IMG/VR virus record: IMGVR_UViG_3300025390_000003
Coordinates: 64,252 to 128,251 of that record
Reading direction: 5' to 3' (one strand)
DNA: 64,000 bases
Source: a virus
Taxonomy: Duplodnaviria > Caudoviricetes
The notes under the pieces were generated by a model. It saw nothing but the letters and a program-made list of their open reading frames with translations, did not search any database and was not told where the DNA came from. The translations under genes and the position numbers were made by a program. Shown here piece after piece: positions 20,762 through 38,535 of the stretch; the stretch's first letter is position 1, and every line of letters starts with the position of its first letter.

Positions 20762-22015
20762 TTATGCGTTATATGGAATCTCTGATAAAAACTTTCTATC
20801 AGGCGATCCATAAGGAGTAAAGTATGCTTCGTAATGTTTTTGGAGATTTTCTGGAGATTCTAGCCAATATTTATCTGCTATTGCTCTGTGTTTTTTCACC
20901 AAGTCTGCATATCTCGTTTGATCTTTTAGTGCGTATTTTACTTGGTCTATAAACTCATCTCCCGTATCATATTTTAAAATCGCATCAGAATACGTACACA
21001 TATTCGGACAAATTACAGGAATACCAAGAGCACCACCTTCAATTAATTTTATGTTGCTTTTTGCAAAATTAAAGTTATTTTTTTGTAAAGCAGCAAAGCA
21101 AAGTTGTGTTCCAGAATTTGCCATTGCTTCCGGGAAATTAGGCAGGTCAACCCAAGGACTATGAATAATCTCACCACTATCTATAAATGGTTTCAATGGT
21201 AATGGATAAGAGCCATAGAACTGCCAAGTATATTCTTTTCTAGTTTTAATTACTGCTTGAACAATTGCCTCGAAATCATCCTTTTGGTTTACACGATTAA
21301 CAACATCAACATGAGTTCCTGATGCGAATATAGAAATTACAGGTTTCTTTTTATTCTTTTCAAATTTCTTTACCATGTCCCCCAAATTGTAATACCTATC
21401 AAACCACCATTTCAACAAGTAATTAGGAATAACGGTAACGTTTTTGTTGTTCGTTTTACTCTTGAAATAATCTGCCATGAAGTCACATGTCACAGTAATT
21501 TCCTCGCATAATTCGAGGATATCAACAATACTACCACGAATAGAAGGATCAACAAAAGCATCTCTATTTCTATTATACATTGGGATATCCTCATGGAATA
21601 CTATATCATCAATCTCGTAAATAAGTTTGAATCCATATTTCTGTGAATAAGATTTCAACATTTTTACAAACTCTTTTTGTATTGGAGTAGCTTGTCTTTG
21701 AAGTTTTACGGCTTTAACTCCAGTATAAAATCTTTCATCAAGAATCATTGTAGTAGATTCCATAATTACTGCTTTGTTGTATAGGTTCAACATTAAATTT
21801 GGAGCCATACAACGATACCAACTACAACCACCATAATCCGCCATATAATTTACTGCTCTTGGTAATCCTTGTCCTGGAATATCCATAGAGGGTGGTTGTG
21901 GTGCGGATTTCGTAGTTATTATATGATTTATGTGTGATGTTGAAGGAATATACGGAAGTCCTATTGGAGCACCTAACATATTATGCAATCCAGTATCTAC
22001 GGTAGAATGAGTCAT
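20762..22015 (-). CDS. GT-B fold glycosyltransferase (GT4-like)
   Basis: GCSWYR, IYEIDD, ITVT, VIPN, FNFAKSNIKLIEGGALGIPVI. Confidence 0.82.
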   Translation of the reverse strand: MTHSTVDTGLHNMLGAPIGLPYIPSTSHINHIITTKSAPQPPSMDIPGQGLPRAVNYMADYGGCSWYRCMAPNLMLNLYNKAVIMESTTMILDERFYTGVKAVKLQRQATPIQKEFVKMLKSYSQKYGFKLIYEIDDIVFHEDIPMYNRNRDAFVDPSIRGSIVDILELCEEITVTCDFMADYFKSKTNNKNVTVIPNYLLKWWFDRYYNLGDMVKKFEKNKKKPVISIFASGTHVDVVNRVNQKDDFEAIVQAVIKTRKEYTWQFYGSYPLPLKPFIDSGEIIHSPWVDLPNFPEAMANSGTQLCFAALQKNNFNFAKSNIKLIEGGALGIPVICPNMCTYSDAILKYDTGDEFIDQVKYALKDQTRYADLVKKHRAIADKYWLESPENLQKHYEAYFTPYGSPDRKFLSEIPYNA

Positions 22016-22290: not shown

Positions 22291-22686
22291 TTACCCCTGA
22301 TTTTCTATATAAGATTTAATAGTTTCAGGATTTGAATTACCTATTGAACATACAAAATATCCATCAGCCCATAATATTTCTTTCTTCCAATAGTATTTCT
22401 TAAGAATATCAGAATATAATCTCCACATTTTATTTGTAGTTTCTTGTTTTAAATGCCTTACTATTTGTGATATAGACAATGAAGGTTCATATGTAATCAT
22501 AAAATGTATATGATCTTTGTCTGTTTCATGTTGTATAATATGATATTTGGATTCTATTGTATTCAATATATTCTTTAATCCAATATCTAAAGTATTAATA
22601 TTAAAACATTTCCTTCTATATTTCGTAAAAAAAATTAAATGACATAATAATAACGATTTGCTTCGATTTTTTGTACAATATTGCAT
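22291..22686 (-). CDS. tnpA: Y1 HUH transposase
   Basis: HLIFFTKYRR, DHIHF (HUH), LWADGYF, YIENQG; ATG at 22686 preferred over the track start 22716. Confidence 0.93.
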   Translation of the reverse strand: MQYCTKNRSKSLLLCHLIFFTKYRRKCFNINTLDIGLKNILNTIESKYHIIQHETDKDHIHFMITYEPSLSISQIVRHLKQETTNKMWRLYSDILKKYYWKKEILWADGYFVCSIGNSNPETIKSYIENQG

Positions 22687-22700
22687 AAATATAATTATAC

Positions 22701-23960: not shown

Positions 23961-23992
23961 TTCACATCATTCACTTCTATTGTTTTCATATT

Positions 23993-25816
23993 TTATATTT
24001 CTTTTACTATATTCGAGAATCCATTACGTTTTTCTATACAAATTACATTATCTACTTTTCCTGATACTGCTTGTCCTCTGTGTGTTATTATATAAGATGA
24101 TTCTTCATAATCATCAACTCTATCTCGTAAAACATCCAATACTAATTCTATACCCTTTGAATCTAATGAAGAATCAATCAATTCATCATAAAAGGTATGA
24201 GAGAACATAACATCACCTTGCAATCTTCTTATATCCAAAAATGCAAACAAACAAGCAAGATCAATTCTTTTCCTTTCTCCTGCTGAAAAACTATAATATG
24301 ACTTCTTTTCTTTACGTTCGTCTATCATTTGTTCCTCAAAAAATTCATCAAACACACAAAAACATGGAGCTTCGAATTTTTGTAAATAATATTGTAGTCT
24401 CTGATTTAATATAGATAGTATTCTTTTTACTATATAACTTTTCACTCCATCTTCTGATACTACGAATTTAACACAATCAAGAATTGCTAGTTTTTTATCT
24501 ATCTCTATCAATTCTTCTTTTTGTTGTGCTAGAGTTTCTTCACTATCTATAACGGTTTGCTCTAATATAGAATTTGTTTCTTTATCTATTTTTAATTTAT
24601 CTGATTGATAATTCTTTATAGATTCTTCGTTATACTCTATTCTTGATTGTGTTTTTTCATTTGCATTACGAAGTTCTCTAATTCCATCTCGTTTTACTTT
24701 TATTGCATCAAGTTCCTTTTTAACGGATAATTTCTTTTCGTTTATAGGAACAAAACGCAATTCTTCTTCACTTTCAGATTTTCTTAATGTTGACAACTTA
24801 TCATACAATTCAGCTTTACACTTTTCCCTATGTTCATTATCTTCTTCTGCATAAGGGCGTTTACAAGTTGGACATCCAGCACCAACCTTTTCTATATCTC
24901 TAATCTGTCCATTTATTACCTTTATGTTTGCTTGTATTTCCGCAATTCCTTTTGATATTTCGAAGTATTTATCTACTAGTCGAATTGATGCTGCATTAAA
25001 GGCATCTTCTTTAGACTTCAATGTTTCCTCTATATTTTCAGGAATTTCTTTGAATGTTAATTTCAAATCTTTAATATTGGAAGTTGACATTGAAATTTTA
25101 TCATCAAGATCAGATAACCGCTTTTGTTTATTACTTTCGAATAACTCCAATTGTTGTTTATTGAGATTATAAGATTTCTCCAATACTTCCTTTTTTGTAA
25201 ATATCAATTCGTAACTTCTTCTTAGCTCATTATATTCATCTCTAGCTTTTAATAACATTACAGAAAACACTTCGAGGTTAAGTATATTTTCGATAAACTT
25301 TCTCTTCTCTACTTTTTCTTGTGCCATGAAAGGTTTAGTGTCGTTTATCGTCATGATTACTGAATTTTGAAAAACTTTACCTGTAGAGTTAAGAAGTTTT
25401 TGTATATATTCTGTAGTTTTAGCTATAGTAGATTTCGTTGCATCAATACTATATTCTTTCGTGGTTTCGTCAAATTTAAACAAAGAACATTTCGATGGAG
25501 CAATTTGTCTCGTCAATTTATATTTTATAGTTTCTGTTGTATCTTCAATAGAGAAGTATAATATAACTTCGCATTGTTTCTTGTTAATAGAATTTACAAT
25601 AAGGTCTTTGTTTAATTCTCTTATTGTAGTTCCAAAAAGTGCAAAATATGGTGCTTCTATTGCTACTGTTGATTTTCCTGCGCCATTTGCACCATCTTTA
25701 TCAAAATTCTTACCTGTTATTATATTAATTCCTGGCTGGAAATCTAATATAACTGGTGTATCTCCAATTGATAGGAAGTTACGAACTGAAATACTATTAA
25801 AAATTACTTTACGCAC
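23993..25816 (-). CDS. gp46: Recombination ATPase (Rad50/SbcC-like)
   Basis: NFLSIG, NGAGKS, CPTC Zn hook, FSAGE signature, YDELIDSSLD, ITH. Confidence 0.95.
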   Translation of the reverse strand: MRKVIFNSISVRNFLSIGDTPVILDFQPGINIITGKNFDKDGANGAGKSTVAIEAPYFALFGTTIRELNKDLIVNSINKKQCEVILYFSIEDTTETIKYKLTRQIAPSKCSLFKFDETTKEYSIDATKSTIAKTTEYIQKLLNSTGKVFQNSVIMTINDTKPFMAQEKVEKRKFIENILNLEVFSVMLLKARDEYNELRRSYELIFTKKEVLEKSYNLNKQQLELFESNKQKRLSDLDDKISMSTSNIKDLKLTFKEIPENIEETLKSKEDAFNAASIRLVDKYFEISKGIAEIQANIKVINGQIRDIEKVGAGCPTCKRPYAEEDNEHREKCKAELYDKLSTLRKSESEEELRFVPINEKKLSVKKELDAIKVKRDGIRELRNANEKTQSRIEYNEESIKNYQSDKLKIDKETNSILEQTVIDSEETLAQQKEELIEIDKKLAILDCVKFVVSEDGVKSYIVKRILSILNQRLQYYLQKFEAPCFCVFDEFFEEQMIDERKEKKSYYSFSAGERKRIDLACLFAFLDIRRLQGDVMFSHTFYDELIDSSLDSKGIELVLDVLRDRVDDYEESSYIITHRGQAVSGKVDNVICIEKRNGFSNIVKEI

Positions 25817-25822
25817 GTATAT

Positions 25823-25850
25823 ATTATACCAGATTTATTTTCATTTTCAA
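25823..25850 (-). promoter_or_regulatory. Sigma70-like promoter of gp46
   Basis: TTGAAA-N16-TATAAT, 6 nt before the GTG start. Confidence 0.65.
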
Positions 25851-25856
25851 CCAATA

Positions 25857-26546
25857 TTAATAATATGTTATCCAATTGTTTGATTGTTTGATTATTTCTA
25901 ACGGCAAAATATCTTTAATACCATGCACTGAAAATACTTCATTAGTTTTCAATCTCTCTCGAAGTTCTGGATGATGCTCTGGTCTAATTGGATCATGACT
26001 ATATCCATGTAAAGTAGATATATTTATATTTTCATACTCGCAAGTTGCAGCAATCCATCTATCGAGAAATCCCAATTCTGTTGGTGTGTATTTACTATCC
26101 GACAATTTTATCCACGTATCTTGTGTGGCTATCCAAGGAGAATGCCCAAAAAATGATGCATTAAACCTACTTTCATCATTTTTCCAAATTTCTCCCATAT
26201 ACATAGTTCCATCTAATATTTCTATATTAGTATTGGGGGTTAATAAGATTGTATCATATTCTATCAACACATTTATTCCAGAAAGTTTAGCAAGGGTATC
26301 TACAGAAAATTTCGTCCGTTTTATACAATCATCACCGTAAAGCTGAGAAACCCCACATGCGTATTCGGTATATTTTGGTAGATTTGGTGTTTCCATATTT
26401 TGTATGAATTCTATACCATTTACTGGATCATCCTCTGGACAAATCATATAAATATTATCAGTAAAAAATATCCAATTATAATAATGTCTGATTATAACAT
26501 CTCTCACCTTTCCATGTGCCATTACTACAATATTATCAAATTTCAT
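25857..26546 (-). CDS. Putative GT-A glycosyltransferase
   Basis: VLIEYD (DxD variant), LDRW, C-terminal SVHGIK; island context. Confidence 0.5.
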   Translation of the reverse strand: MKFDNIVVMAHGKVRDVIIRHYYNWIFFTDNIYMICPEDDPVNGIEFIQNMETPNLPKYTEYACGVSQLYGDDCIKRTKFSVDTLAKLSGINVLIEYDTILLTPNTNIEILDGTMYMGEIWKNDESRFNASFFGHSPWIATQDTWIKLSDSKYTPTELGFLDRWIAATCEYENINISTLHGYSHDPIRPEHHPELRERLKTNEVFSVHGIKDILPLEIIKQSNNWITYY

Positions 26547-26555
26547 ATTTATTAT

Positions 26556-27251
26556 TTAATCTGACATATCTACCGAATCCACTGTAATGTTATCATCTTT
26601 CACGTATAACCTATCATGAATAAACCAAGGTGTTTCTCCACCATATATCCATTTGTTCATACCATATCTAATTGCGATAACAGACATTGCCGTTTGGTCG
26701 TGTCTATGCCCCTTTACTCTTGTGTCTTTTGATGCCAATAACATATTGTTATTATGAGGACCAGGAAAGGTAATCCCATCATTTGCCAATTGCATCATAT
26801 CTCCAAAAAAATCATATATCACTTTATAATTAAAATTCAATCCGAAATTAGTCCCTTGCATACACGGCATAGTAAAAGATTCTTCTCGTGTGATGTTAAG
26901 TGTTTTTAATGCTTTATCATGACAATAACTACCCAAATCATGATTATACAGAAAGAAATACCCATCGGTGTTTATACGATTAAACGCATCATCAAGATTT
27001 TTTTTTATTATTACGCTGCTATCCAACCATAATATTCTTTTATATCCATTTTCTAATGCATCTCGTATACAATAATATTTAAACGCAAATGGAGATTCTT
27101 GATGTGTTGGACATCCTTTAGGGTATTCATTAAATCCTAAAAATGGGACACCCAAAGCTTCGCATTGTAATCTAAGTCGATCTACTCCCTTAATAAAGTT
27201 ATATCCAACACCAAAACTTACAACACAAGATTCGTTCATAAAACAATCCAA
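26556..27251 (-). CDS. GT-A-like nucleotide-sugar transferase (DUF1647-like)
   Basis: FAFKYY, ILWLDSS, HRHDQT motifs. Confidence 0.7.
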   Translation of the reverse strand: MDCFMNESCVVSFGVGYNFIKGVDRLRLQCEALGVPFLGFNEYPKGCPTHQESPFAFKYYCIRDALENGYKRILWLDSSVIIKKNLDDAFNRINTDGYFFLYNHDLGSYCHDKALKTLNITREESFTMPCMQGTNFGLNFNYKVIYDFFGDMMQLANDGITFPGPHNNNMLLASKDTRVKGHRHDQTAMSVIAIRYGMNKWIYGGETPWFIHDRLYVKDDNITVDSVDMSD

Positions 27252-27916
27252 TTTTTTTTAGAAATATTATATAAAAAATTATCATTATATAATCTCGCGT
27301 ATTTATGATAGTATAATTTTTTACTTTTTACTTCTATTGACTCTATTATATGTTTAAAACTAGAATCTATAACGTGTATTTCCGTCGCATTTTCAATGAT
27401 CTTTAAATAATCAAATATATTATTTGTAAATCTAATATCAGGAGTAACCACTTGAACATTTTGTGGTATATGGGTTTTATCTATATTAAAATTTCTTTGT
27501 GTATCTTCGTGTATAAAAATGTAATCCCCCTTTATTTCAAATTTGTCATATAATTCTTGTTCTCTTTTATTATCGCGCAATATATAAAAATCGCTCCATC
27601 GTTTATCAAAGTCCAATCCAACACTATGATAAAAAAATTTATCATAATTTTGAATACAATCTAGATATTGATGTCCTATAACGAGATGGGTTTCTTGTGG
27701 AACGTTTTTCAGTATGTTCTGTGCGTCTTTATCATCAGCTTTTACTATCGATAAATTATGTATATCCCTAAACATAAATCCCACACTTTCTACATTATGT
27801 GGTTTACAAAAAAGGTTTACTTTTTCTACCCTTTTACAAATATTTCTAATTAATCCATTACATATAATGTGATCCCCTAATCCCAAATGCTGATATACAT
27901 AAAGTTCTTTATTCAT
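27236..27916 (-). CDS. GT9-like (GT-B) glycosyltransferase
   Basis: HLGLGD N-terminus; HVIDSSFKH. Confidence 0.65.
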   Translation of the reverse strand: MNKELYVYQHLGLGDHIICNGLIRNICKRVEKVNLFCKPHNVESVGFMFRDIHNLSIVKADDKDAQNILKNVPQETHLVIGHQYLDCIQNYDKFFYHSVGLDFDKRWSDFYILRDNKREQELYDKFEIKGDYIFIHEDTQRNFNIDKTHIPQNVQVVTPDIRFTNNIFDYLKIIENATEIHVIDSSFKHIIESIEVKSKKLYYHKYARLYNDNFLYNISKKNWIVL

Positions 27917-27920
27917 ATTA

Positions 27921-28538
27921 CTAACGTAAAAATATATCTGAGTAATTATACACCCTCTCTACTGAGTTTCTCGTGAATATATAGTGCCAAGTATATTCAA
28001 ATATTCTACTAGTAGTAAAATTATCTAGATGAGTTTCTATTAAAAAATCCACCAAACTTTGATAAAATTCTATTGGATATTGTAATATTAAGCCTTTATC
28101 TACTACAAATTGCGCACATGAATAATAAGAAAAAATTGAAGGAAACGTAAGATATTTTTCAAACAGTCTCCAATTATCTTTGAGAAATGCTATATATATT
28201 TCACGATTCGCATTCATACTAATCTCTTTTTGATAAAAATCACGTTTATTTACCGAAAAAAATAAATCCGCATTCCAATTCACTTTTAATATAATATCAT
28301 CCATATTAAAGTCTTGATGATACGACATCCTATGATCATGTGAAAATAAAGTCTTATCTGGAAGATTATTATAATTATCTATGATATATCGCAAATAACA
28401 AAGAGATTCTTGTCCCTTGTTTGGTTCTATGAAATTATAATTTTTATTGGTTTTAGAATATATAAATTTTTTAATATTTATGTTATCCACCCAACCAATA
28501 TCGTGATCATAATGAGCGACTAATATTGCAGTATCCAT
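27921..28538 (-). CDS. DUF3431-family protein (GT-like)
   Basis: NKGQESLCYLRYIIDNYNNLPD, CAQFVV, FEYTWHYIF. Confidence 0.8.
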   Translation of the reverse strand: MDTAILVAHYDHDIGWVDNINIKKFIYSKTNKNYNFIEPNKGQESLCYLRYIIDNYNNLPDKTLFSHDHRMSYHQDFNMDDIILKVNWNADLFFSVNKRDFYQKEISMNANREIYIAFLKDNWRLFEKYLTFPSIFSYYSCAQFVVDKGLILQYPIEFYQSLVDFLIETHLDNFTTSRIFEYTWHYIFTRNSVERVYNYSDIFLR

Positions 28539-28542
28539 TATA

Positions 28543-29151
28543 TTAATTAATCTTTTCGTATACTAAATACCCATTTCTTTCATTTAAATTGTCATCTATA
28601 ATCCTATAAATCAATGGATGGTTTAATACCTCTTCTCTTATTTTTCTACACTTCAATTCTTTCGTATCATCTAAAGCGCAATACCGACTCCTATCTTTTA
28701 ATAAATTCCATTCCATATATGTAGAAAACTCTCCACCATCTAGAACCAAAAAATCTATTTTATCATGGACTTTATAATAAACATTAGGCAAATCTTTCAT
28801 CCAATTATAATCCTGTTGCAACCAACTTTTTTGGTCTGAAGATAAAATAGAAACATCAAACCAACTGCTTAACAGAGATTCATCCACCAATTTTCCGAAA
28901 ATAATATCAAAATTTGAATTTAAATTTTGTTTATTATTCTTGGTAGCCAAGATAAACATTTCAGGATTACATTCAAACGAACGAAAATTATAAACAACTT
29001 TATCTTTTAATCCTTCTAATATACATCTGGTAGTCCCCATACCATTCCAAGTTCCAACTTCTAATATATTATTTACATCAGAGATATTTGCAATATCTCT
29101 GATATGTTTACCTAAATTGGTAGTTTCAAAATTTATTTGTCCGTATTCCAT
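28543..29151 (-). CDS. Class I SAM-dependent methyltransferase (likely sugar O-methyltransferase)
   Basis: ILEVGTWNGMGT, LVLDGG, ALDD. Confidence 0.8.
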   Translation of the reverse strand: MEYGQINFETTNLGKHIRDIANISDVNNILEVGTWNGMGTTRCILEGLKDKVVYNFRSFECNPEMFILATKNNKQNLNSNFDIIFGKLVDESLLSSWFDVSILSSDQKSWLQQDYNWMKDLPNVYYKVHDKIDFLVLDGGEFSTYMEWNLLKDRSRYCALDDTKELKCRKIREEVLNHPLIYRIIDDNLNERNGYLVYEKIN

Positions 29152-29185
29152 ATTTTAATTTTATTTATATACATTAAAAATAAAA

Positions 29186-29941
29186 TCAACATCGTATAAT
29201 TTTATATACATCATCTTCCATTATCAAATCTATCATGTTTTTATTTTCTAAACTATTCCACCCCGTTTTTGGTAATGCGTTTATGATTGTTTCCGCATCA
29301 GATAAAAACCCCGCCCAAAAACTAAATGTTCCTTGGCTTAATATGAGTTTTTTATGGTGAGATAAAAAATCCAACGTTTTTTTGGAATTCATGGTTATTA
29401 CATTACATTTATAATTATCGGTTAATATTTTTATATATTCGTGATTAGGAGAATCAGTAGTGATATTGATAATATCATAATCCTTTATCGCATCTATAGC
29501 TTCAATATAGTAGGATATTGGAAGTAAATGTTGTCTACTATTATAATCCATCAAATCCCCCAATCTAATATGCATCCCTATATCATTATCATTAACAATA
29601 TATGGAGTTATATTACACCATTTTTTTATGTTACTTTTATATGGTATGTAATATTCTTTTTTTTGAAAATAATGATCCAATACAATACGTCTTGGTGTAT
29701 TATCATTAATAATATCACACAAATTAAAGTTACAATTATCTAAATATTGAATCGGAGTATTATAACATTGTAATGATTTATTACAATAATCTAAATGAAA
29801 TTCATCTAACAAAGTATGTTCATTTAAGTTTCTTAACTGAAACCCTAAACTTTGTGATATTATTTTACCCAAAAATAATGTAAACATTTGATTACCTAAC
29901 CTACCTATAGGATTAATTTTATTGTATATATCCACACTCAT
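29186..29941 (-). CDS. GT11 alpha-1,2-fucosyltransferase-like protein
   Basis: GRLGNQMF, YFQ, HIRLGD, GTFSFWAGFL. Confidence 0.88.
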   Translation of the reverse strand: MSVDIYNKINPIGRLGNQMFTLFLGKIISQSLGFQLRNLNEHTLLDEFHLDYCNKSLQCYNTPIQYLDNCNFNLCDIINDNTPRRIVLDHYFQKKEYYIPYKSNIKKWCNITPYIVNDNDIGMHIRLGDLMDYNSRQHLLPISYYIEAIDAIKDYDIINITTDSPNHEYIKILTDNYKCNVITMNSKKTLDFLSHHKKLILSQGTFSFWAGFLSDAETIINALPKTGWNSLENKNMIDLIMEDDVYKIIRC

Positions 29942-30765
29942 AACAAAACATCTCTTTGATTTATTATAACATTAATCCAATATGGCATAGTCAATTTTTC
30001 GATATTACTAAAACACTCTCCGTTCTTATATTTTTCTATCGTTTCTGTTATAGTAAATTCGTCTATATATTTCCAATCATCTATTTGTATAATAGGCAAA
30101 TCTTTAAATGTATCATACATAAAATGCCGTTCTACAATAGGTATCGACCCAAGATATAATGTTTCCCAAGTGCGATGGCAATCTATACCATTTCCTTTAG
30201 GTGATGCAACAAACAAAAACCTTTTAACTTCTTCACAATATTCTTTATATGTATTTTTTCTATCAAATATCCCGTTACCATTTTCAGTTAATATTTTAAT
30301 AACATCATATCTATTAATATTTGTAATAGGATTAAAATTACAATATATTTTATTTATAATTTTATTACTAATAGATAGAGGTTTTATATAATCTTTAATA
30401 AATTCGAAATCTGTATTTTGTCCTCTATTACATCCTTTATCATTTTCTATCCCTATAGGTAGAGGAACCAAATCTTTATGTTTATAGTTGACATTTTGTG
30501 CATACCATTTATATATACATTTTGGTTTGTTTATAAATTTAAATTCATTTATCTCATAATCACTACAATGTGATATTAATATATATTTATTATCGTTATT
30601 TTTTATTTTATCAAATAATTCGGGTATAAAATCCGTCTTACACCATATTATTGAACCATCTTTTAATACACTTAAATCATCAAACCTGTTAATATCTATA
30701 ATAACATCAGCAATAGTTTGAAACTTTATTCCACATATAAATTCTTCTTTAAAATTTTCTATCAT
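29938..30765 (-). CDS. Exostosin/GT47-like glycosyltransferase
   Basis: FVASPKGNGIDCHRTWETLYLGSIPIV. Confidence 0.82.
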   Translation of the reverse strand: MIENFKEEFICGIKFQTIADVIIDINRFDDLSVLKDGSIIWCKTDFIPELFDKIKNNDNKYILISHCSDYEINEFKFINKPKCIYKWYAQNVNYKHKDLVPLPIGIENDKGCNRGQNTDFEFIKDYIKPLSISNKIINKIYCNFNPITNINRYDVIKILTENGNGIFDRKNTYKEYCEEVKRFLFVASPKGNGIDCHRTWETLYLGSIPIVERHFMYDTFKDLPIIQIDDWKYIDEFTITETIEKYKNGECFSNIEKLTMPYWINVIINQRDVLL

Positions 30766-30767
30766 AT

Positions 30768-31685
30768 TTAATCTTTTGTAGTAATTACGTTTTTAAAATT
30801 TTGTGTGTTTTTTAATGTATTAGAAACGATTAATGTATCATCAGTAATTTGTGTTTCTGTATTTGTTGTTTGTTGTATATGATATATAAAATCATCATAT
30901 AAAGACCTTCCAACATTATTCCAAAATTTGTTTTTCATAAAAACACAATCCTCATCCAGTTTTTCTATATTTATGATTCGCCTATATTTATAATTTTCTT
31001 GCTTTATAATATTTGTAATTTTAGTAAAAAGTTTATACATATATTCATCTAATATAGGGATTCTTTGCCCCACATAAGAACCATAAACCACCCTTTCATG
31101 TTTTGGGAACTTTATGGTGTCTTTATAAATATGACCAAAATATTCATCATGTTGTATCACATCATCAATTATTAATGGATATATATAATCTCTAGCAAAA
31201 TCCATATCTGTACCATATGCAAGATTATTAGTATGTCTCATATATGATGAGATTTTTTCTTTTATGTTAAAGATATTTGCTGTCCCGCCCCACATACCAG
31301 TTAATATATTACCACTATGTCCTCCAGGATGATCGCGCATAATATGAAATTTTTTAGTTGAACGAATCCAATCTTCAACTGCTGCTGCTTCTCTACTATT
31401 AATAAGAGAATCAGTATCTCTTATTATATATCTATCAACTTCCAAATCATCATTAACCAAAAATCGCCAAAATGTACCTTCGGTATCTTTATTTTCTTCA
31501 CATAAAAATATTTCAGAGCCTAGATTTTTAAGTTCTGATACTACGTCATTAGGAACCGTGTGGTCTATATAAAATCTGGTAATCCAAGATGGATAAATGG
31601 TTCTTGCTAGATGCACATTTTTTATTGCTAATGCATTATATTCTTTATGCGCTCCCCATAAACTAAATGATATTACATTTTTCAT
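30768..31685 (-). CDS. Putative GT-A glycosyltransferase
   Basis: ISFSLWG, FWRFL, IIRDTDS (DxD), HIMRDHP, GMWGG. Confidence 0.7.
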   Translation of the reverse strand: MKNVISFSLWGAHKEYNALAIKNVHLARTIYPSWITRFYIDHTVPNDVVSELKNLGSEIFLCEENKDTEGTFWRFLVNDDLEVDRYIIRDTDSLINSREAAAVEDWIRSTKKFHIMRDHPGGHSGNILTGMWGGTANIFNIKEKISSYMRHTNNLAYGTDMDFARDYIYPLIIDDVIQHDEYFGHIYKDTIKFPKHERVVYGSYVGQRIPILDEYMYKLFTKITNIIKQENYKYRRIINIEKLDEDCVFMKNKFWNNVGRSLYDDFIYHIQQTTNTETQITDDTLIVSNTLKNTQNFKNVITTKD

Positions 31686-32352
31686 CTTTAAATCCAGTCA
31701 ATCTCCTTCTTTGATATGTTTCATAATCTATTTTTTCTAACTTATTATTCCTAATATACAAATCATCAGGATTTTCATTCACATTTGAATATTGAACATG
31801 TTTTATTAATTCCATGTCAAAATATTTAACCTTTCTATTCATTAAAGAAGCTGCGGTAAATTCAGTATCACAATATAAAGATTGGTATTCAGGATTATAA
31901 ATATACCCAAACCTATCATAATATTTCTTACCTATTATAGATAAGGTGTTTAATTTTTCCCCTTGGAACCCATCATTAAACCATAAAACACCATCCATAT
32001 CAGGAAAATTTTCTAACATTTTTTCTTTAATAATAACATCATATCCTGCTTGAATAGGTTGCATATCATCTGATGCTAATAATAATATATCAAATTCAAC
32101 TCCTTCCATATTATTGTTTATCGCAGAAACTTTTGATGCATTTTCACTAAAGAAGTATCTAAGATTTGGATACGAGTCTAATCTTCCTTTAACTTCATCA
32201 TTATTCATAGTTTCATCATCATTATCACAGGAGACTATAAATTCAAAGTTTTCACTTCTCAACATAAAATAATATTCGTCCAACCTAATAAAGAACTTTT
32301 CTGGTCTACTTCTAGTGGGAAATTTAATCAACAATTTCAAGTTATTCAGCAT
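31663..32352 (-). CDS. GT2-like glycosyltransferase
   Basis: IKFPTRSRP, SCDNDD, KVSAIN, LLASDDM, YCDTEF. Confidence 0.82.
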   Translation of the reverse strand: MLNNLKLLIKFPTRSRPEKFFIRLDEYYFMLRSENFEFIVSCDNDDETMNNDEVKGRLDSYPNLRYFFSENASKVSAINNNMEGVEFDILLLASDDMQPIQAGYDVIIKEKMLENFPDMDGVLWFNDGFQGEKLNTLSIIGKKYYDRFGYIYNPEYQSLYCDTEFTAASLMNRKVKYFDMELIKHVQYSNVNENPDDLYIRNNKLEKIDYETYQRRRLTGFKDEKCNII

Positions 32353-33073
32353 ATATATTTACTCCTTTATATTTTAAAATTTCTTTATTATACATTCGTT
32401 CAATAAATCTCCCGTATTTAAACATCTCCTTATTATTATGAGTAGCGGTAGCATCAACATCTATATTACTATCATTATCACCATATTTTAAAGTTCTCCA
32501 AGACATCCCTTCATAATGAGTAAAATATATATCCTGCAATTTAACATTTCCTATTTTAAGTTTTGAATTTTTTATATCTTCAAAAAACGACGCACCAACA
32601 TCATAAATTTTACCATCCACCACATTTGATAATCGGGATTTATCATAAAATTTTATCCCATTATCTTTAATATTTTTAACATTTATAAAACAATGCCAAG
32701 GATGAACTCTATTATACAAAGACTTTCCTCCCCTATCTCCACAAATTTCCCCTAGTAATGTAACATCCATCAATTGAACTTGTGAAAAAATATCTTCATG
32801 AGACTTCAAAAATATAACATCAGTATCCACTAATAACATATATTCTGTTTCACATTTATCGATTAATATATTCACTGAAGGACTATGCAACCCACCATTA
32901 TTTCTTATATACGGAACTTTATATTCTTTTAATAATACTTCAGTATCATCATTTGTGGAATTATCACAAATTAAAACCTTCGTCTCGTCATGATGTGAAA
33001 AAAATGACTTTAACATCGTTATCGTCACATCAGGAGTATTATAAGAACATGAAGCAAGAGTTATATTATTCAT
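32342..33073 (-). CDS. GT2-like glycosyltransferase
   Basis: SYNTP, ICDNSTND, LLVDTDVIF. Confidence 0.82.
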   Translation of the reverse strand: MNNITLASCSYNTPDVTITMLKSFFSHHDETKVLICDNSTNDDTEVLLKEYKVPYIRNNGGLHSPSVNILIDKCETEYMLLVDTDVIFLKSHEDIFSQVQLMDVTLLGEICGDRGGKSLYNRVHPWHCFINVKNIKDNGIKFYDKSRLSNVVDGKIYDVGASFFEDIKNSKLKIGNVKLQDIYFTHYEGMSWRTLKYGDNDSNIDVDATATHNNKEMFKYGRFIERMYNKEILKYKGVNIYAE

Positions 33074-33917
33074 TTTTAGATTTATGTTGTTTAATCCATT
33101 CTATCACATTTTCTTGTGAATCTAAAGGTGTTTGTGCTGGATACTGACCGTTTTTAATACGATATTTTTCTGCATTAGCCCAAACATTATCAATCCACTC
33201 TTTAGTGTTTTTAGATGTTGTGCTGTTTTCAATAGAATCCTTTTGTGGTTCGATATATTTATCACTATTAGCAATATCAGCAAAATACCAAAAAGGTGGA
33301 TGAAACCCTGCCTTTATAGCTTGGTATGTATGGTCCACGTGTTCCCAAGCATTTTTATATTGTTCATCCAAATATCCAATTTTTTCAATTACACTTCTAT
33401 GGTAATAAGAAAACATTCCAGAAATATGCTCATATAACGCAATTTTATATCTATTACCATAATCTAATATCAGCTTGGGATTTGGTTCACTATCCAAAGA
33501 TAATTCATGTCTATTATGTAAATCAAATGAAGTATTCTGTTTATGGTTAAATGGGGTTCCTAGAGCATAATTTAAATGTTTTATTCCTGATATTAGAGAC
33601 ATATTAATATATTCTTGTAATACATCCTTACATAATACGTGCTTAAAAATTATATCATCTTCAATCAAAAATATATGTTCACAACCAGCATCCATTAAAT
33701 ATTGCAACGCTTTATTTTTACTTTTTGCAATACCTAAATTAATTTCATTATCTATTAATTTACCATCAATATGTCTGATCGTTTTTAATTGTTCACCATC
33801 ATTAACAACTACAAGTTTATCATATTTCAATTCAGCAGCAAATATACTTTCAAGACAGCAATATAATGCATGTTCTCTGTTACAAGTCGTAATGCCTATA
33901 CCTATTTTGTTTTTCAT
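33066..33917 (-). CDS. GT2-like glycosyltransferase
   Basis: GITTCNR, VVNDG, NLGIAKSKN, FLIEDD, IGYLDE, WEHVD. Confidence 0.88.
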   Translation of the reverse strand: MKNKIGIGITTCNREHALYCCLESIFAAELKYDKLVVVNDGEQLKTIRHIDGKLIDNEINLGIAKSKNKALQYLMDAGCEHIFLIEDDIIFKHVLCKDVLQEYINMSLISGIKHLNYALGTPFNHKQNTSFDLHNRHELSLDSEPNPKLILDYGNRYKIALYEHISGMFSYYHRSVIEKIGYLDEQYKNAWEHVDHTYQAIKAGFHPPFWYFADIANSDKYIEPQKDSIENSTTSKNTKEWIDNVWANAEKYRIKNGQYPAQTPLDSQENVIEWIKQHKSKNE

Positions 33918-34615
33918 TGCTTTATTCGTTTTAATTCTTCTGTTAATATTTTTAATTCACCCACATTCTCTTCCCAAGGCAAACTTTCATATTTATATAG
34001 GAACCACTGTGAACTATACTCATCTATATTAGGTTTGTCTATAATAATCTTTTGGTGATTAATATCGAACATCCAAGGTGTTGCTTTAAACCCTGATACT
34101 GGCATTAACTTCTTTTTAGCTAATCTGTGAGTATAATCAATAGAACTAGTAAAATCTTTCAACCGAACATCAAAATATCCGACTACTTCGATTGCTCGTC
34201 TTTCAATAACTTCTAATATTAGTTTTTGTCCCATTCCAGTTCCAATATCAATTTTAGCATCACCATAATCAATAGTAGTAACCGCTTTTAGATCACCAAC
34301 AAAATATGGAATGTTGGTTATTTTCATTACTCTTTGATACTCTGATATTAAATTAATCACATCAGTCAAAGACTGTTCTGTAATTTTTTTATCAGGACAC
34401 CATAGAACATTAACACCATATTCCCCTACATAACCTTTACGTAATGCTTCGTTTTTTAATTGTGTTAGGTTTTCATCTCTAGTATATGAAATCACATCAT
34501 ACTCTGTGTTAATACCACTTTTAAACCTATCAAAAATAGTAAATTTAACTTTCGGTAATTGTTCTTGCTTCGTTGTATAATTCAATGCATTTTTCATATA
34601 TATTCTTCTTATCAA
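33914..34615 (-). CDS. Degenerate GT2-like protein (possible paralog of 33066..33917)
   Basis: LKNEALR and VVGYFD...IDYTHR align with the neighbour; no DxD motif. Confidence 0.55.
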   Translation of the reverse strand: MIRRIYMKNALNYTTKQEQLPKVKFTIFDRFKSGINTEYDVISYTRDENLTQLKNEALRKGYVGEYGVNVLWCPDKKITEQSLTDVINLISEYQRVMKITNIPYFVGDLKAVTTIDYGDAKIDIGTGMGQKLILEVIERRAIEVVGYFDVRLKDFTSSIDYTHRLAKKKLMPVSGFKATPWMFDINHQKIIIDKPNIDEYSSQWFLYKYESLPWEENVGELKILTEELKRIKQ

Positions 34616-35645
34616 CCTCTGTATTTAATACGTTTATAAAATCATTCAAGGCTTCATCCACACTTATATTACATTTTTCAATATCTTTCGTTGTTGTGAT
34701 AATATCTTCGTATGTAAATTCTGTCTTGAATTGTAGTGGTTTTAATTGCGTTATTTTAGATATTACCAAATTTAAAGTGTCTTCGTTGAGTTTTTCGTCA
34801 ATTAATAAAGTAACAACATTTCCATTGATACCCTTCTTCAAATCAACAGTCTTTGCTAATATTGAAGTTAGGCTTATTTTGATGTGTTTAGGGGATATTA
34901 AATTTTCAATAAACTCATATTTCATGGTATTGAAATCCAATATGGTTATTCCTTTGGCTTGATTAACTTCTCCAAAATTCTGTTCAAAAGGAGAACCTAA
35001 GTATAAAATTTCTCCGTTATCATAAGTTCTGTGATCCCTAGAATGAAAATGCCCGCTTATTACAGTATTTGCTTTATCTAATAAGTTTGCTGAATCTTCA
35101 CCATGTTCACAAATCTTTACGAAATTTATTTTAAAATTTGTTATCTCAAAATGTCCAAAAATAATATCACTCTTTGGTATATCTTTAACTTCAACTCCCC
35201 AAGGACAAAATGTAAGAGTTTTACCACAATGTTCTATAGTGGTTAATTTATCATATACTGTAATGTTTTCCCATCCATCAAAAGGTTTAAGTGAATGTAT
35301 TATTGAATTGTTTTTATAATAACAACAATGATTTCCAGGTATCATTATAATATTAAAATCCTTAAATTTCTTTAAAAATTCAGTCCCACAATCTAATGTA
35401 GTCTGATTGACTTCCTCTCTATAATGAAAGAAATCCCCACAAAATATAATATCCCGAATTTTTTTGGATTCCAGTGTATCTTTTACCCAATCTGCAAAAT
35501 CCAATGCAATTTTATGCCACACAGGAGAATCCCCATGTAACCCAATATGTAAATCCGAAAATAATGCAACTTTATTCTTCATGGAAAGTTTCGTAAGATT
35601 CGTCGTAAGAATTATCATCACATTCACCCTTAGAATTTTTAGCAA
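34545..35645 (-). CDS. gp47: Recombination nuclease (Mre11/SbcD-like); likely start at MKNKV, 35582
   Basis: SDLHIG, GDFFH, PGNH, GHFE, SGHFH, YLGSP. Confidence 0.93.
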   Translation of the reverse strand: MLKILRVNVMIILTTNLTKLSMKNKVALFSDLHIGLHGDSPVWHKIALDFADWVKDTLESKKIRDIIFCGDFFHYREEVNQTTLDCGTEFLKKFKDFNIIMIPGNHCCYYKNNSIIHSLKPFDGWENITVYDKLTTIEHCGKTLTFCPWGVEVKDIPKSDIIFGHFEITNFKINFVKICEHGEDSANLLDKANTVISGHFHSRDHRTYDNGEILYLGSPFEQNFGEVNQAKGITILDFNTMKYEFIENLISPKHIKISLTSILAKTVDLKKGINGNVVTLLIDEKLNEDTLNLVISKITQLKPLQFKTEFTYEDIITTTKDIEKCNISVDEALNDFINVLNTEVDKKNIYEKCIELYNEARTITES

Positions 35646-36624
35646 AGGGTATTTGTCCTGATTCAGTTAAAAGATTATACACACTTTCCTGATACCTTTT
35701 AATTGTGTCGTGATCTTTCTTCTCTTTTTTAATTCTATTTTGAAATGCTCTAAATGCAACCTTTGTGAAATAAGAAAATGGATTATAGCCGGAATCACAT
35801 TTAAATCGATGTCTAGTTAATGCTGTTACCATCTTAATTACTGCATCACCTATCATCTCTTCTTTGTAGGAATTACCAGAGATATATACACATTCCCCTC
35901 TTCTCGCAATAAAAGTTCCATATCCAGTCTCTGGACACCATATCACACCTTTATAAAATTGATTGCTACAATTAATACCAGACATTCTACATATATTTTC
36001 ATTTCCTATACATGTATCAACTTTTAAATTATCATCTACTACCCCTGAACCTTCACACATTAATACCATACATTCCTTTTCGTTTTGTAAGAAGGTTTCT
36101 ATTGGTTGTATTCCATTTTCCATACTAACAAATTTATGACCAGGAGAAACTAAAGCATCCAATCCATGTGATACCAATTTATACATCAATCCATCATATT
36201 CTATATTAATAAACACACCCTTTACATCACTCCACACGAGATTTTGGTTTTTTATATCATAAGATAAAATTTTATCAGTTTCATCTATATCATCATATCC
36301 AACCCACCCACGTTGAGTTAATGCCTGTGTGTGTTCATCCACACAATAATTTATGAAGTTTTGTGCATACCCCAAACGAGTGGCAATTTTCTGTATCATA
36401 TCTGCCAACTCTCCGCTGAAATATCCAGTTTTATAATATTCTTTAATTTTAAACTCCATTTCACTCGGATCAACATAATTAGTCTTCAACTCTTCCTTCG
36501 TTCTCCGAATTCGTTTTTTTGGCGACATGTGTTCCTTGATATCATCGAAATTATCCTTTTCGTTAGTTATATCAATGAGAACTCCATCCATATATAAATC
36601 ATCTTCTTTTTTATTCTGTTTCAT
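35572..36624 (-). CDS. gp55: Late-transcription sigma factor with intein
   Basis: NYVD, KIATRL...NFINY|...|SYKEEMIGDA, NPFSYFT...AFQNRIKKEKK. Confidence 0.92.
   Translation of the reverse strand: MKQNKKEDDLYMDGVLIDITNEKDNFDDIKEHMSPKKRIRRTKEELKTNYVDPSEMEFKIKEYYKTGYFSGELADMIQKIATRLGYAQNFINYCVDEHTQALTQRGWVGYDDIDETDKILSYDIKNQNLVWSDVKGVFINIEYDGLMYKLVSHGLDALVSPGHKFVSMENGIQPIETFLQNEKECMVLMCEGSGVVDDNLKVDTCIGNENICRMSGINCSNQFYKGVIWCPETGYGTFIARRGECVYISGNSYKEEMIGDAVIKMVTALTRHRFKCDSGYNPFSYFTKVAFRAFQNRIKKEKKDHDTIKRYQESVYNLLTESGQIPFAKNSKGECDDNSYDESYETFHEE
35872..36345 (-). mobile_element. 158-aa mini-intein in gp55
   Basis: NFINY|CVDEHTQALTQRGW...VSPGH...IWCPET...YISGN|SY. Confidence 0.9.
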
Positions 36625-36642
36625 GGGTATTTTTATATTATA

Positions 36643-38522: not shown

Positions 38523-38535
38523 ATTGTATAATTAC

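What the first reader, a model, noticed from the sequence alone, without database searches (positions are those of the whole stretch)
25857..34615. Twelve-gene glycan-building island between gp47 and gp46
The normally neighbouring recombination genes are separated by about 8.7 kb of overlapping ORFs: several GT2, other GT-A types, GT47/exostosin, GT11, GT9-like, DUF3431, DUF1647-like and a methyltransferase. No sugar-nucleotide synthesis, flippase or ligase genes are visible, and the proteins look soluble. Inference: a cytoplasmic assembly line for a branched, methylated oligosaccharide on virion proteins, DNA or a host receptor. T4 alpha-glucosyltransferase lies next to gene 47, so a DNA-modification role is positionally plausible, but this diversity fits protein or surface glycosylation better. 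gp46 has its own promoter right after the island.
Basis: partly seen in the sequence, partly recalled or inferred. Interest (0 to 1): 0.8.

Follow-up and report, generated by a model that had tools for sequence, protein, structure and literature searches.

The report
Variable sugar-adding gene cassette in phage
An uncultured T4-like phage carries twelve tightly packed genes for soluble sugar-adding and methyl-adding enzymes between two DNA-repair genes. It is one version of a fast-changing cassette found throughout its clade, and it most likely decorates the phage particle (or else the host surface) with a strain-specific glycan, though no target has been shown.

Summary
Twelve co-directional minus-strand ORFs (25857-34615, about 99% coding) lie between an Mre11-like gp47 and a Rad50-like gp46.

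- **Enzyme identity:** eleven of the twelve have profile, fold or family evidence for glycosyltransferase (GT), glycan-linked or methyltransferase identity (O8's is indirect). None has a membrane segment.
- **In relatives:** distant relatives have gp47 touching gp46. Closer ones carry 3.5 to more than 10 kb of mosaic GT, methyltransferase and sugar-nucleotide genes there, nearly always led by an O11-like GT2.
- **Relocation:** relatives without the insert carry a homologous cassette, with the same GT2 at its head, elsewhere in the genome.
- **Outside the given coordinates:** a clade-wide conserved GT4-fold enzyme follows gp46.
- **DNA target disfavoured:** two complete island-bearing relatives lack thymidylate-synthase homologues and C5 methylases (the Tet/JBP search was uninformative).
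- **Timing and motif:** late-promoter motifs precede four island genes. A Leu-Ser-small tripeptide is 2.9-fold enriched in this phage's structural module (5-7-fold in two large proteins) and not in T4 structural proteins.

Best reading: cytoplasmic glycosylation of virion proteins (0.45). Main rival: remodelling of host lipopolysaccharide (0.3).

GT-rich variable islands are already described in aquatic T4-like phages, so this is a new member of a known but functionally unsolved kind. The scan also noted this same stretch in an overlapping window (e1-5768085).

The parts
34545..35645 (-). gp47-like Mre11 nuclease (upstream flank)
   Evidence: Metallophos 2.9e-8. Orthologues at 37-57% identity lie upstream of gp46 in relatives.
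33914..34615 (-). O12, GT2-like GT-A fold. The likely start is the ATG at 34597.
   Evidence: The ESM Atlas model (pTM 0.67) matches GT2 clusters at TM 0.56-0.68. Homologues start at the position of Met7. TAAATA at 34627-34622 lies 6 nt before the TTG at 34615.
33066..33917 (-). O11, GT2; the conserved head gene of the cassette (cluster C1)
   Evidence: Glycos_transf_2 at 31.3 bits, over the 23.3 cut-off. It is the first gene after gp47 in most relatives and heads the relocated cassettes in G005 and G006.
32342..33073 (-). O10, GT2
   Evidence: Glycos_transf_2 at 33.6 bits, over the cut-off. DTD at residues 83-85.
31663..32352 (-). O9, GT2-like
   Evidence: phrog_14945 glycosyltransferase, 3.7e-16. 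It falls in the same BLAST cluster as O10. TAAATA lies 3 nt before the ATG.
30768..31685 (-). O8, unannotated domain of about 215 aa with an RDTDS motif; probable GT-A
   Evidence: 358 homologues without a Pfam family. Some are fused to GT2, Fringe or TPR domains. Motif seen.
29938..30765 (-). O7, RXYLT1_C / exostosin-like GT
   Evidence: RXYLT1_C at 22.3 bits, below the cut-off. Cluster mate L016:6986-7780 scores 36.8 bits, over the cut-off, plus a weak Exostosin_GT47 hit.
29186..29941 (-). O6, GT11-type (fucosyltransferase family)
   Evidence: Glyco_transf_11, 1.7e-9 and over the cut-off. phrog_2644 glycosyltransferase, 4.6e-14.
29162..29169 (-). TATAAATA late-promoter-like motif in the island's only real gap
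   Evidence: It lies 10 nt before the O5 ATG. Genome-wide, TAAATA lies within 22 nt of 54 of 141 starts against 2.7 expected.
28543..29151 (-). O5, probable class I SAM methyltransferase (weak)
   Evidence: Methyltransf_24 at E 0.035; cluster mate at 0.0021; both below the cut-off. Only weak methyltransferase hits in the PDB.
27921..28538 (-). O4, DUF3431
   Evidence: PF11913, 8e-34. Elsewhere the family is fused to GT90, GT1, GT32, GT9, Methyltransf_24 and a TPT-family transporter domain.
27236..27916 (-). O3, compact GT9-like GT-B fold
   Evidence: AF2 model with pLDDT 94.4 and pTM 0.90. Foldseek top hits are GT9 3tov (E 3.7e-5), WaaC, TibC and WaaF. The family has more than 1000 members and no Pfam entry.
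26556..27251 (-). O2, unresolved; possible GT-A (GT8-like)
   Evidence: Only Glyco_transf_8 at E 0.038. Nothing in PHROGs, NCBIfam or the PDB.
25857..26546 (-). O1, GT-A fold
   Evidence: The ESM Atlas model (pTM 0.80) matches GlcNAc-T, Nucleotid_trans, GT8 and Fringe clusters at TM 0.64-0.71. TAAATA lies 6 nt before the ATG.
25823..25850 (-). sigma70-like promoter before gp46
   Evidence: TTGAAA-16-TATAAT with TG, 11 of 12 matches, the best in 23500-38600.
23993..25816 (-). gp46-like Rad50 ATPase (downstream flank)
   Evidence: SMC_N. 29.5% identity to the cyanophage 'recombination-related endonuclease'. More than 1000 homologues.
20762..22015 (-). Conserved GT-B (GT4-like) glycosyltransferase, outside the given coordinates; proposed partner of the cassette
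   Evidence: AF2 model with pLDDT 90.5. Foldseek hits include BshA, PglA, PimB', WaaG, GtfC and SdgB at E about 1e-10. It follows gp46 in almost every relative that has downstream sequence, at 43-80% identity. TATAAATA precedes its ATG.

Best explanation
The twelve genes are one allele of a clade-wide, rapidly reshuffled cassette of soluble glycosyltransferases and sugar methyltransferases that works in the infected cell's cytoplasm.

Shown:
- Enzyme identity is supported for 11 of the 12 genes (O8 only indirectly).
- There are no membrane components.
- The cassette has a conserved GT2 head gene (O11).
- A conserved GT4-fold gene lies after gp46.
- Content is mosaic among relatives, and the whole cassette has been relocated in some.
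- Late-promoter motifs lie inside the island.

Inferred:
- The conserved enzymes (O11 and/or the GT4-fold protein) put a first sugar on serine residues of late virion proteins (tail, baseplate, fibre).
- The variable enzymes then extend and methylate it, using host nucleotide sugars and SAM.
- Each phage lineage thereby gets its own surface glycan.
For: - **GT or methyltransferase identity:**
- **Soluble proteins:** the maximum 19-residue hydropathy is 1.1 or less in all 12. Only 19 of 463 island ORFs in relatives reach 1.6, against 15% of all ORFs. No flippase, polymerase, ligase or polyprenyl-phosphate transferase family appears among the 25 commonest families of the relatives' islands.
- **Conserved head gene plus mosaic remainder:** 133 clusters in about 60 loci. 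A homologous cassette headed by the same GT2 lies elsewhere in G005 and G006.
- **Conserved GT4-fold neighbour:**
- **Late expression signals:** TAAATA lies 3-10 nt before O12, O9, O5 and O1, four sites against 0.49 expected, P = 0.0013. The same motif marks 54 of 141 gene starts against 2.7 expected.
- **DNA acceptor unlikely:** no PF00303 or PF00145 in two 100%-complete island-bearing relatives.
- **Leu-Ser-(Ser/Ala/Gly) motif:** 80 observed against 27.9 expected in the structural half of this genome, and 10 against 12.1 in the other half. It is 5-7-fold enriched in orthologues of two large structural proteins in four complete relatives. T4 structural proteins give 9 against 11.4.
- **Precedents:** mycobacteriophage capsid and tail-tube glycosylation by phage GTs (PMC12363180, citing Freeman 2023). 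TibC, among the top fold matches of O3, is deposited as a heptosyltransferase; from my own knowledge it heptosylates serines of a protein (the TibA adhesin).
Against: - No glycoprotein, mass-spectrometry or virion data exist, because the phage is uncultured.
- The families present (GT9, GT8-like, GT11, GT2, GT4, and GT25 in relatives) are typical of lipopolysaccharide core and O-antigen synthesis. Published work on aquatic myophages favours modification of the host O-chain (PMC7029224).
- The island sits in an early/middle replication-recombination block. The relocated cassette in G006 has a sigma70-like promoter.
- The tripeptide enrichment could be a structural feature of this clade's fibre proteins. 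All five genomes examined have the cassette, so co-variation could not be tested.
- O11 is not a sequence homologue of Che8 gp108-110.
Confidence: 0.45

Rival explanations
1. The cassette remodels a host envelope glycan during infection. Soluble or peripheral GTs would act on lipid A-core or on an undecaprenyl-linked primer at the inner face of the membrane. Host MsbA or ABC exporters would move the product outwards. The changed surface would block superinfection or stop progeny from sticking to debris.
For: - The families are typical of lipopolysaccharide core and O-antigen work: GT9 fold, GT11, GT2, a weak GT8 hit, GT4 fold, and GT25, Caps_synth and sugar-nucleotide genes in relatives.
- Core GTs such as WaaC and WaaG need no membrane segment or flippase of their own (my own knowledge).
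- This is the published interpretation for pelagimyophage and cyanomyophage GT clusters (PMC7029224, PMC12801897).
- A sigma70-like promoter precedes the G006 cassette.
Against: - The GT2 and GT4-fold enzymes are conserved across a clade whose genomes range from 31 to 41% GC. That argues for a conserved, probably phage-borne, acceptor rather than the core glycans of many different hosts.
- Late-promoter motifs lie before four island genes and before the GT4-fold gene.
- This reading does not explain the tripeptide enrichment on structural proteins.
- No exporter, ligase or priming transferase appears in the Pfam tally of the 130 cluster representatives of the 463 island ORFs, and few ORFs have a hydrophobic segment.
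Confidence: 0.3
2. The enzymes hypermodify phage DNA with an oligosaccharide, as T4 glucosylates hydroxymethylcytosine and RB69 arabinosylates 5-hydroxycytosine.
For:
- Phage GT clusters can put mono- to trisaccharides on DNA (PMC13326640; bioRxiv 10.1101/2023.12.21.572611).
- Hypervariability would fit an arms race with restriction systems.
Against: - Known routes need a thymidylate-synthase homologue or a cytosine methylase plus a TET-like oxygenase (same two papers).
- PF00303 and PF00145 are absent from two 100%-complete island-bearing relatives. The PF12851 search also found nothing, but its control did not ring.
- This genome holds only a 65-aa thymidylate-synthase fragment beside an insertion sequence.
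- Twelve enzymes, one of them a probable methyltransferase, far exceed the mono- to trisaccharide DNA glycans reported in those two papers.
Confidence: 0.05
3. The product is something else that stays in the cytoplasm. It could be glycosylation of a host protein or a non-virion phage protein, or synthesis of a free glycoside.
For: The enzymes are soluble and no acceptor has been identified. O8-family domains are fused to TPR repeats in some bacteria, which suggests protein acceptors.
Against: Nothing specific points to such a target. Extreme allelic diversity is more typical of exposed surface glycans.
Confidence: 0.12

Closest known systems
GT-rich hypervariable regions of aquatic T4-like myophages: the pelagimyophage host-recognition cluster, and the cyanomyophages P-SSM2, S-SCSM1 and S-SCSM2R (13 GTs)
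   Same: All are T4-like aquatic phages with clusters of many small GTs (GT2, GT11, GT25, GT8 and others). The clusters contain sugar-nucleotide epimerases and vary strongly between relatives. Their function is untested (PMC7029224, PMC12801897).
   Different: - This is a different clade: gp46 is at most 29.5% identical to any cultured phage.
- The cassette lies between gp47 and gp46 rather than in the tail-fibre region.
- It has a fixed GT2 head gene and a conserved GT4-fold neighbour.
- This allele has no sugar-nucleotide genes.
Mycobacteriophage virion O-glycosylation (Che8, Corndog, Myrna)
   Same: Phage-encoded soluble GTs glycosylate capsid and tail proteins in the cytoplasm (PMC12363180, PMC11256854, both citing Freeman 2023). 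O11 has homologues at 29% identity in 544 mycobacteriophage records, for example the N-terminal part of Velveteen gp98.
   Different: - That system has two or three GTs, not twelve.
- O11 is not homologous to Che8 gp108-110.
- Glycosylation is not shown for this phage.
- The host and the virion type differ.
Chlorovirus and mimivirus capsid or fibril glycan machinery
   Same: Virus-encoded cytoplasmic GTs, sugar methyltransferases and rare-sugar pathways build strain-specific glycans on virion proteins without host membrane machinery (PMC9614988, PMC5408694; abstracts and titles read only).
   Different: Those are eukaryotic giant viruses. No sequence-level orthology was tested here.
T4 alpha- and beta-glucosyltransferases, and RB69 or DLP3 arabinosyl-5-hydroxycytosine clusters
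   Same: These are GT genes in T4-type genomes close to replication and recombination genes (PMC13326640).
   Different: They need a thymidylate-synthase-family base hydroxylase or hydroxymethylase, which complete relatives here lack. They also involve only one to a few GTs.
Cytoplasmic O-glycosylation of bacterial adhesins and serine-rich repeat proteins (TibC/AAH; GtfA/B, GtfC, SdgB)
   Same: Soluble GT9-fold and GT4-fold enzymes act stepwise on serines of a protein (my own knowledge). O3 and the GT4-fold protein match these structures, among others.
   Different: This is fold-level resemblance only. The same folds also match lipopolysaccharide enzymes (WaaC, WaaG).

Membership tests
GT2 (Pfam PF00535) | Profile score over the curated cut-off, plus a DXD-type motif after the fourth strand | tested here: met
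   O10 scores 33.6 bits and O11 31.3 bits against a cut-off of 23.3. LVDTDV is present in O10 and LIEDDI in O11. O9 and O12 are only GT2-like.
GT11 (PF01531) | Profile score over the cut-off; HxRRGD-type motif | tested here: met
   O6 scores 37.8 bits against 23.9, covering profile positions 161-274 of 298. HIRLGD is present. Only the C-terminal half of the profile aligns.
DUF3431 (PF11913) | Profile score over the cut-off along the whole domain | tested here: met
   O4 scores 117.7 bits against 25, covering profile positions 6-209 of 219. No paper found in the library describes a biochemical function for the family.
GT47/exostosin and RXYLT1_C (PF03016, PF24785) | Profile score over the cut-off | tested here: inconclusive
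   O7 scores 22.3 bits, under the 27-bit cut-off. Its cluster mate L016:6986-7780 scores 36.8 bits for RXYLT1_C, but only 20.7 against 33.4 for Exostosin_GT47.
GT9 (PF01075, heptosyltransferases) | Profile match and a two-domain GT-B fold of about 320 aa | tested here: inconclusive
   O3 has no Pfam, NCBIfam or PDB-sequence match. The model's best fold matches are all GT9 (3tov E 3.7e-5, TM 0.56-0.59; WaaC, TibC, WaaF). O3 is only 226 aa.
Class I SAM methyltransferase (Methyltransf_24, PF13578) | Profile score over the cut-off; glycine-rich SAM motif | tested here: inconclusive
   O5 scores 15.4 bits and its cluster mate 19.4 bits against a cut-off of 26.3. The EVGTWNGMG motif aligns with the motif of a true Methyltransf_24 domain at E 0.035.
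GT4-type GT-B | Two Rossmann domains with GT4-like topology; profile match | tested here: inconclusive
   The 20762-22015 protein has pLDDT 90.5. At least 500 PDB matches are at E 0.001 or better; the 50 best listed are GT-B glycosyltransferases, led by GT4 enzymes. The Pfam hit to Glyco_trans_1_2 is 22.4 bits, under the 25-bit cut-off.
   No such hit at E up to 0.1 for any of the 12 ORFs.
DNA sugar-hypermodification gene cluster | A GT together with an enzyme that makes a hydroxyl handle on a base (thymidylate-synthase homologue, or C5 methylase plus TET-like oxygenase) | tested here: not met
   PF00303 and PF00145 are absent from two complete island-bearing relatives and from this 61%-complete genome, apart from a 65-aa fragment. 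The PF12851 search was uninformative because its control did not ring.
Wzx/Wzy or ABC-dependent O-antigen or capsule locus | Priming polyprenyl-phosphate transferase, flippase or ABC exporter, polymerase or ligase | tested here: not met
   No such family among the hits of the 12 ORFs or among the 25 commonest families of 130 cluster representatives. Few hydrophobic segments. Only the top 25 of 94 families were listed, so rare members cannot be excluded.
Phage virion glycosylation system (mycobacteriophage type) | Glycans demonstrated on capsid or tail proteins and dependent on phage GTs | not testable with these tools
   Only indirect evidence is available: late-promoter motifs and a Ser-containing tripeptide enriched in structural proteins.

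The most novel reading that the evidence does not exclude
A two-tier virion glycosylation system exists in a large clade of aquatic T4-like phages. Conserved priming enzymes (the O11-type GT2 and/or the GT4-fold protein after gp46) would recognise a Leu-Ser-(Ser/Ala/Gly) sequon on tail, baseplate and fibre proteins. A hypervariable, relocatable cassette would then build lineage-specific methylated glycans, in effect a phage 'serotype locus'.
Probability: 0.3. Interest if true: 0.8.

Novelty: new member of a known kind. Interest (0 to 1): 0.55.

Why it matters
Clusters of many glycosyltransferases are common in aquatic T4-like phages, but no one knows what they glycosylate.

This clade offers a tractable case. 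It has a fixed head gene, a conserved partner enzyme, a candidate sequon on structural proteins, and dozens of natural cassette alleles to compare.

If the target is the virion, phage particles of Gram-negative hosts would carry their own variable glycan coats. That would bear on adsorption, grazing, decay and recognition by host defences.

If the target is the host envelope, this would be a large-scale example of lytic-phage surface remodelling.

The island also exposes two or three unannotated putative enzyme families: the O3-type compact GT9-like fold, the O8-type domain, and DUF3431.

Tried and rejected
- **Megablast** of the region against cultured phages found nothing.
- **Single-sequence PDB searches** of O1, O2, O3, O8 and O12 gave nothing useful. 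PDB profile searches for the O3 and O5 families and the GT4-fold protein also gave nothing useful.
- **NCBIfam** gave no family for nine island ORFs or the GT4-fold protein.
- **Homology to the proven Che8 virion GTs** was tested and rejected. O11 against gp108 gives E 0.21, and no island ORF of any relative matches gp109 or gp110.
- **Rosetta-stone check:** I tried to show direct homology of O5 and O3 to the methyltransferase and GT9 parts of DUF3431 fusion proteins. Only motif-level similarity appeared.
- **Co-variation of the Leu-Ser-small motif with cassette presence** could not be tested. The relatives that seemed to lack the island carry the cassette elsewhere.
- **Host identification** through the insertion-sequence TnpB failed. 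The best genome match is 40% identity, to a Bacillus contig.
- **A bare count of TATAAATA** is uninformative: 33 sites, which is not more than base composition predicts. Only its position relative to start codons carries signal.
- One call failed on a mistyped reference. One paper, Freeman 2023, is not held in the library.

Full report
**Setting.** The window is the second half of a single 128,251-bp virus contig with 31% GC. It is classed as linear and about 61% complete. It is a distant T4-like phage. Its gp46 is at most 29.5% identical to any cultured phage, and the region has no megablast match among phage records.

One search lists twelve minus-strand ORFs of 202-305 aa between 25857 and 34615.
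- I number them O1 to O12 in plus-strand order; transcription runs from O12 to O1.
- Neighbouring ORFs overlap by 4-23 nt or are 2-9 nt apart. The one exception is a 34-nt gap between O6 and O5.
- Opposite-strand ORFs there are short.
- The island is slightly more AT-rich than the rest of the genome (27.8% against 31.0% GC).
- Upstream lies a calcineurin-type phosphoesterase (Mre11/gp47-like). Downstream lies an SMC/AAA_23 ATPase (Rad50/gp46-like).
- Further upstream are a gp55-like gene and a helicase. This is the T4 order 55-47-46 (T4 order from my own knowledge).

**What the twelve proteins are.**

| ORF | Best evidence |
|---|---|
| O12 | ESM Atlas model (pTM 0.67) resembles GT2 (TM 0.56-0.68); real start probably the ATG at 34597, as in homologues |
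| O11 | Glycos_transf_2 over the Pfam cut-off |
| O10 | Glycos_transf_2 over the Pfam cut-off |
| O9 | PHROG glycosyltransferase family, 3.7e-16; clusters with O10 by BLAST |
| O8 | Family of at least 358 proteins of about 215 aa, no Pfam entry; RDTDS motif; elsewhere fused to GT2, Fringe or TPR domains |
| O7 | RXYLT1_C below the cut-off; a cluster mate over it, plus a weak exostosin hit |
| O6 | Glyco_transf_11 over the Pfam cut-off |
| O5 | Sub-threshold Methyltransf_24 hits and a glycine-rich motif only |
| O4 | DUF3431, 8e-34 |
| O3 | No sequence-level match; family of more than 1000 proteins; GT9 fold (below) |
| O2 | Unresolved; weak GT8 hit, E 0.038 |
| O1 | ESM Atlas model (pTM 0.80) resembles GT-A enzymes (TM 0.64-0.71 to GlcNAc-transferase, Nucleotid_trans, GT8 and Fringe clusters) |

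- **O3 in detail.** Its family occurs in phages and Patescibacteria and has no Pfam entry. With 55 homologues it folds at pLDDT 94.4 and pTM 0.90. The best PDB matches are all GT9: 3tov at E 3.7e-5, then WaaC, TibC and WaaF.
- **DUF3431 context.** No functional literature was found for the family. In other proteins it is fused to GT90, GT1, GT32, GT9, Methyltransf_24 and a TPT-family transporter domain. This ties it to glycan work. The adjacent O5-O4-O3 trio repeats the family set of one such fusion.
- **Not reproduced.** 'DUF1647-like' was not found by any search.
- **Solubility.** No ORF has a membrane-like segment.
- **Missing functions.** None of the twelve hits a sugar-nucleotide, flippase or ligase family.

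**Comparative genomics.** A gp46 profile retrieved 80 related viral contigs.
- **Adjacent state.** In 15 of them gp47 ends 0-17 bp before gp46. On a gp46 tree most of these form one well-supported clade, and two more form a separate pair.
- **Insert state.** In the others an insert of 3.5 kb to more than 10 kb lies between the two genes.
- **Mosaic content.** The 463 ORFs of these inserts fall into 133 sequence clusters.
- **Head gene.** The only near-constant member is the O11-type GT2 (cluster C1), almost always the first gene after gp47.
- **Sharing with this phage.** The closest usable relative, L017, shares eight of the twelve genes. O1, O2 and O4 are unique among the 80 loci.
- **Families in relatives' islands.** A Pfam tally of 130 cluster representatives shows methyltransferases (FkbM, Methyltransf_24 and _23, TylF), epimerases and dehydratases, nucleotidyltransferases and HAD enzymes, and GT25, GT31-type, GT2, GT11, GT32-type, exostosin and Caps_synth families.
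- **Common clusters scanned individually.** These include a PseB/CapD-like dehydratase, a DegT aminotransferase, a HAD-nucleotidyltransferase fusion, an acetolactate-synthase-like TPP enzyme and a PanB-like enzyme.
- **Consequence.** The locus as a whole does make its own unusual nucleotide sugars. This particular allele does not.
- **Hydrophobic segments.** These are rarer in island ORFs (4%) than in the phages' ORFs overall (15%).

**The cassette is clade-wide and has moved.** I fetched four complete or near-complete relatives.
- G001 and G002 carry short islands between gp47 and gp46.
- G005 and G006 have gp47 and gp46 adjacent, yet each has a homologous cassette elsewhere.
  - G005: about 14 genes at 105.6-117.5 kb.
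  - G006: 8 genes at 181.5-187.5 kb.
  - Both are again headed by a C1-type GT2 (43-46% identical to a C1 member).
- The gp47/gp46 position is therefore one of several homes of a single conserved locus.

**A conserved partner outside the given coordinates.** The 417-aa gene after gp46 (20762-22015) is present in almost every relative that has sequence downstream of gp46, at 43-80% identity. It is better conserved than gp46 itself.
- Its model (pLDDT 90.5) is a GT-B enzyme of GT4 type.
- Foldseek matches include BshA, PglA, PimB', WaaG, GtfC and SdgB at about E 1e-10.
- In this genome an IS200/IS605 element separates it from gp46. The element carries TnpA, TnpB and a 65-aa thymidylate-synthase fragment, and no relative has it.

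**Timing.** This phage uses TAAATA just upstream of start codons as its late-promoter mark. The motif lies within 22 nt of 54 of 141 starts, against 2.7 expected.
- On the coding strand of the island, 21 copies occur.
- Four of them end 3-10 nt before the starts of O12, O9, O5 and O1. The expectation is 0.49, P = 0.0013.
- The copy before O5 is the full T4 consensus TATAAATA, in the island's only real gap.
- The GT4-fold gene has the same motif.
- Sigma70-like promoters precede gp55 (upstream of the island) and gp46.
- The island is therefore probably read both early, by read-through, and late.
- In G006 the relocated cassette has a sigma70-like promoter, so timing evidence is not uniform across the clade.

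**Which acceptor?**

*DNA.*
- Known sugar hypermodifications start from a base hydroxylated or hydroxymethylated by a thymidylate-synthase homologue, or from a cytosine methylase plus a TET-like oxygenase (PMC13326640; bioRxiv 10.1101/2023.12.21.572611).
- Neither PF00303 nor PF00145 is found in two 100%-complete island-bearing relatives.
- PF12851 is not found either, but that search had no positive control.
- I rate DNA at about 5%.

*Virion proteins.*
- I reproduced the enrichment: 80 observed against 27.9 expected in the structural half of the genome, and 10 against 12.1 in the rest.
- It is 5-7-fold in orthologues of two large structural proteins in all four complete relatives.
- It is absent from 22 T4 structural proteins (9 against 11.4).
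- This fits a conserved priming enzyme acting on phage proteins.
- It is circumstantial, though. All genomes examined carry the cassette, so presence against absence could not be compared.

*Host envelope.*
- The family set resembles lipopolysaccharide core and O-antigen enzymes. Such core enzymes are soluble and rely on host export (my own knowledge).
- This is the reading given for pelagimyophages (PMC7029224) and considered for cyanomyophages (PMC12801897).
- It remains a serious rival at about 30%.

**Homology leads that did not settle the matter.**
- O11 has homologues in 544 mycobacteriophage records (29% identity, for example the N-terminal part of Velveteen gp98) and in some lambdoid enterophages (30-34%).
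- It is not related to Che8 gp108-110. Of these, gp110 is named as one of the essential capsid GTs in PMC12363180.

**Comparison with what is known, and verdict.**
- GT-rich variable islands are already described in aquatic T4-like phages. One cyanomyovirus is reported with 13 GTs (PMC12801897).
- I therefore class this as a new member of a known, functionally unsolved kind.
- What is new here:
  - the position between gp47 and gp46;
  - the fixed GT2 head gene;
  - the relocation of the whole cassette within the clade;
  - the conserved GT4-fold neighbour;
  - the late-promoter motifs;
  - the absence of thymidylate-synthase-type and C5-methylase DNA-handle enzymes in complete relatives;
  - the link to a candidate sequon.
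- Best explanation: stepwise cytoplasmic glycosylation and methylation of virion proteins (0.45).
- Interest: 0.55.

Noticed in passing
window 22042-23960: An IS200/IS605 element lies between gp46 and the conserved GT4-fold gene. It comprises TnpA (22291-22716, minus strand) and TnpB (22701-23960, plus strand). Next to it is a 65-aa C-terminal thymidylate-synthase fragment (22042-22239, minus strand). None of the 80 related loci has these three ORFs.
   Followed up: partly
window 16156-20718: This ORF is 1520 aa, but its orthologues in four complete relatives are 847-863 aa. About 670 extra residues may come from inteins or an inserted endonuclease. I ran no domain search.
   Followed up: no
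window 35572-36624: The gp55-like gene is 350 aa here against 160-205 aa in relatives, and it has a weak Intein_splicing hit (E 0.08). This fits the intein noted by another reader.
   Followed up: partly
window 27236-27916 (O3) and proteins P0241-P0360: O3 belongs to a family of more than 1000 proteins of about 230 aa with no Pfam entry. The family occurs in phages and Patescibacteria, has an invariant GLGD motif and folds as a compact GT9-like protein. It is a candidate unannotated glycosyltransferase family.
   Followed up: partly
L013, L023, L024, L034, L063 (upstream 10 kb of each): Some relatives' islands combine a PseB/CapD-like dehydratase, a DegT aminotransferase, an acetolactate-synthase-like TPP enzyme, a PanB-like hydroxymethyltransferase, FkbM methyltransferases and GT11. 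This looks like a pathway for an unusual branched or acylated amino-deoxy sugar.
   Followed up: partly
G005 105.6-117.5 kb (loci L098); G006 181.5-187.5 kb (locus L125): Relatives with adjacent gp47 and gp46 carry a homologous GT cassette, headed by the same GT2, elsewhere in the genome. The whole locus has therefore been relocated during the clade's history.
   Followed up: yes
window 20762-22015, first ~45 residues: The conserved GT4-fold protein starts with a proline-rich segment of lower model confidence (consensus has GLP and PPPE elements). The segment is conserved across relatives. Its role is unknown.
   Followed up: no
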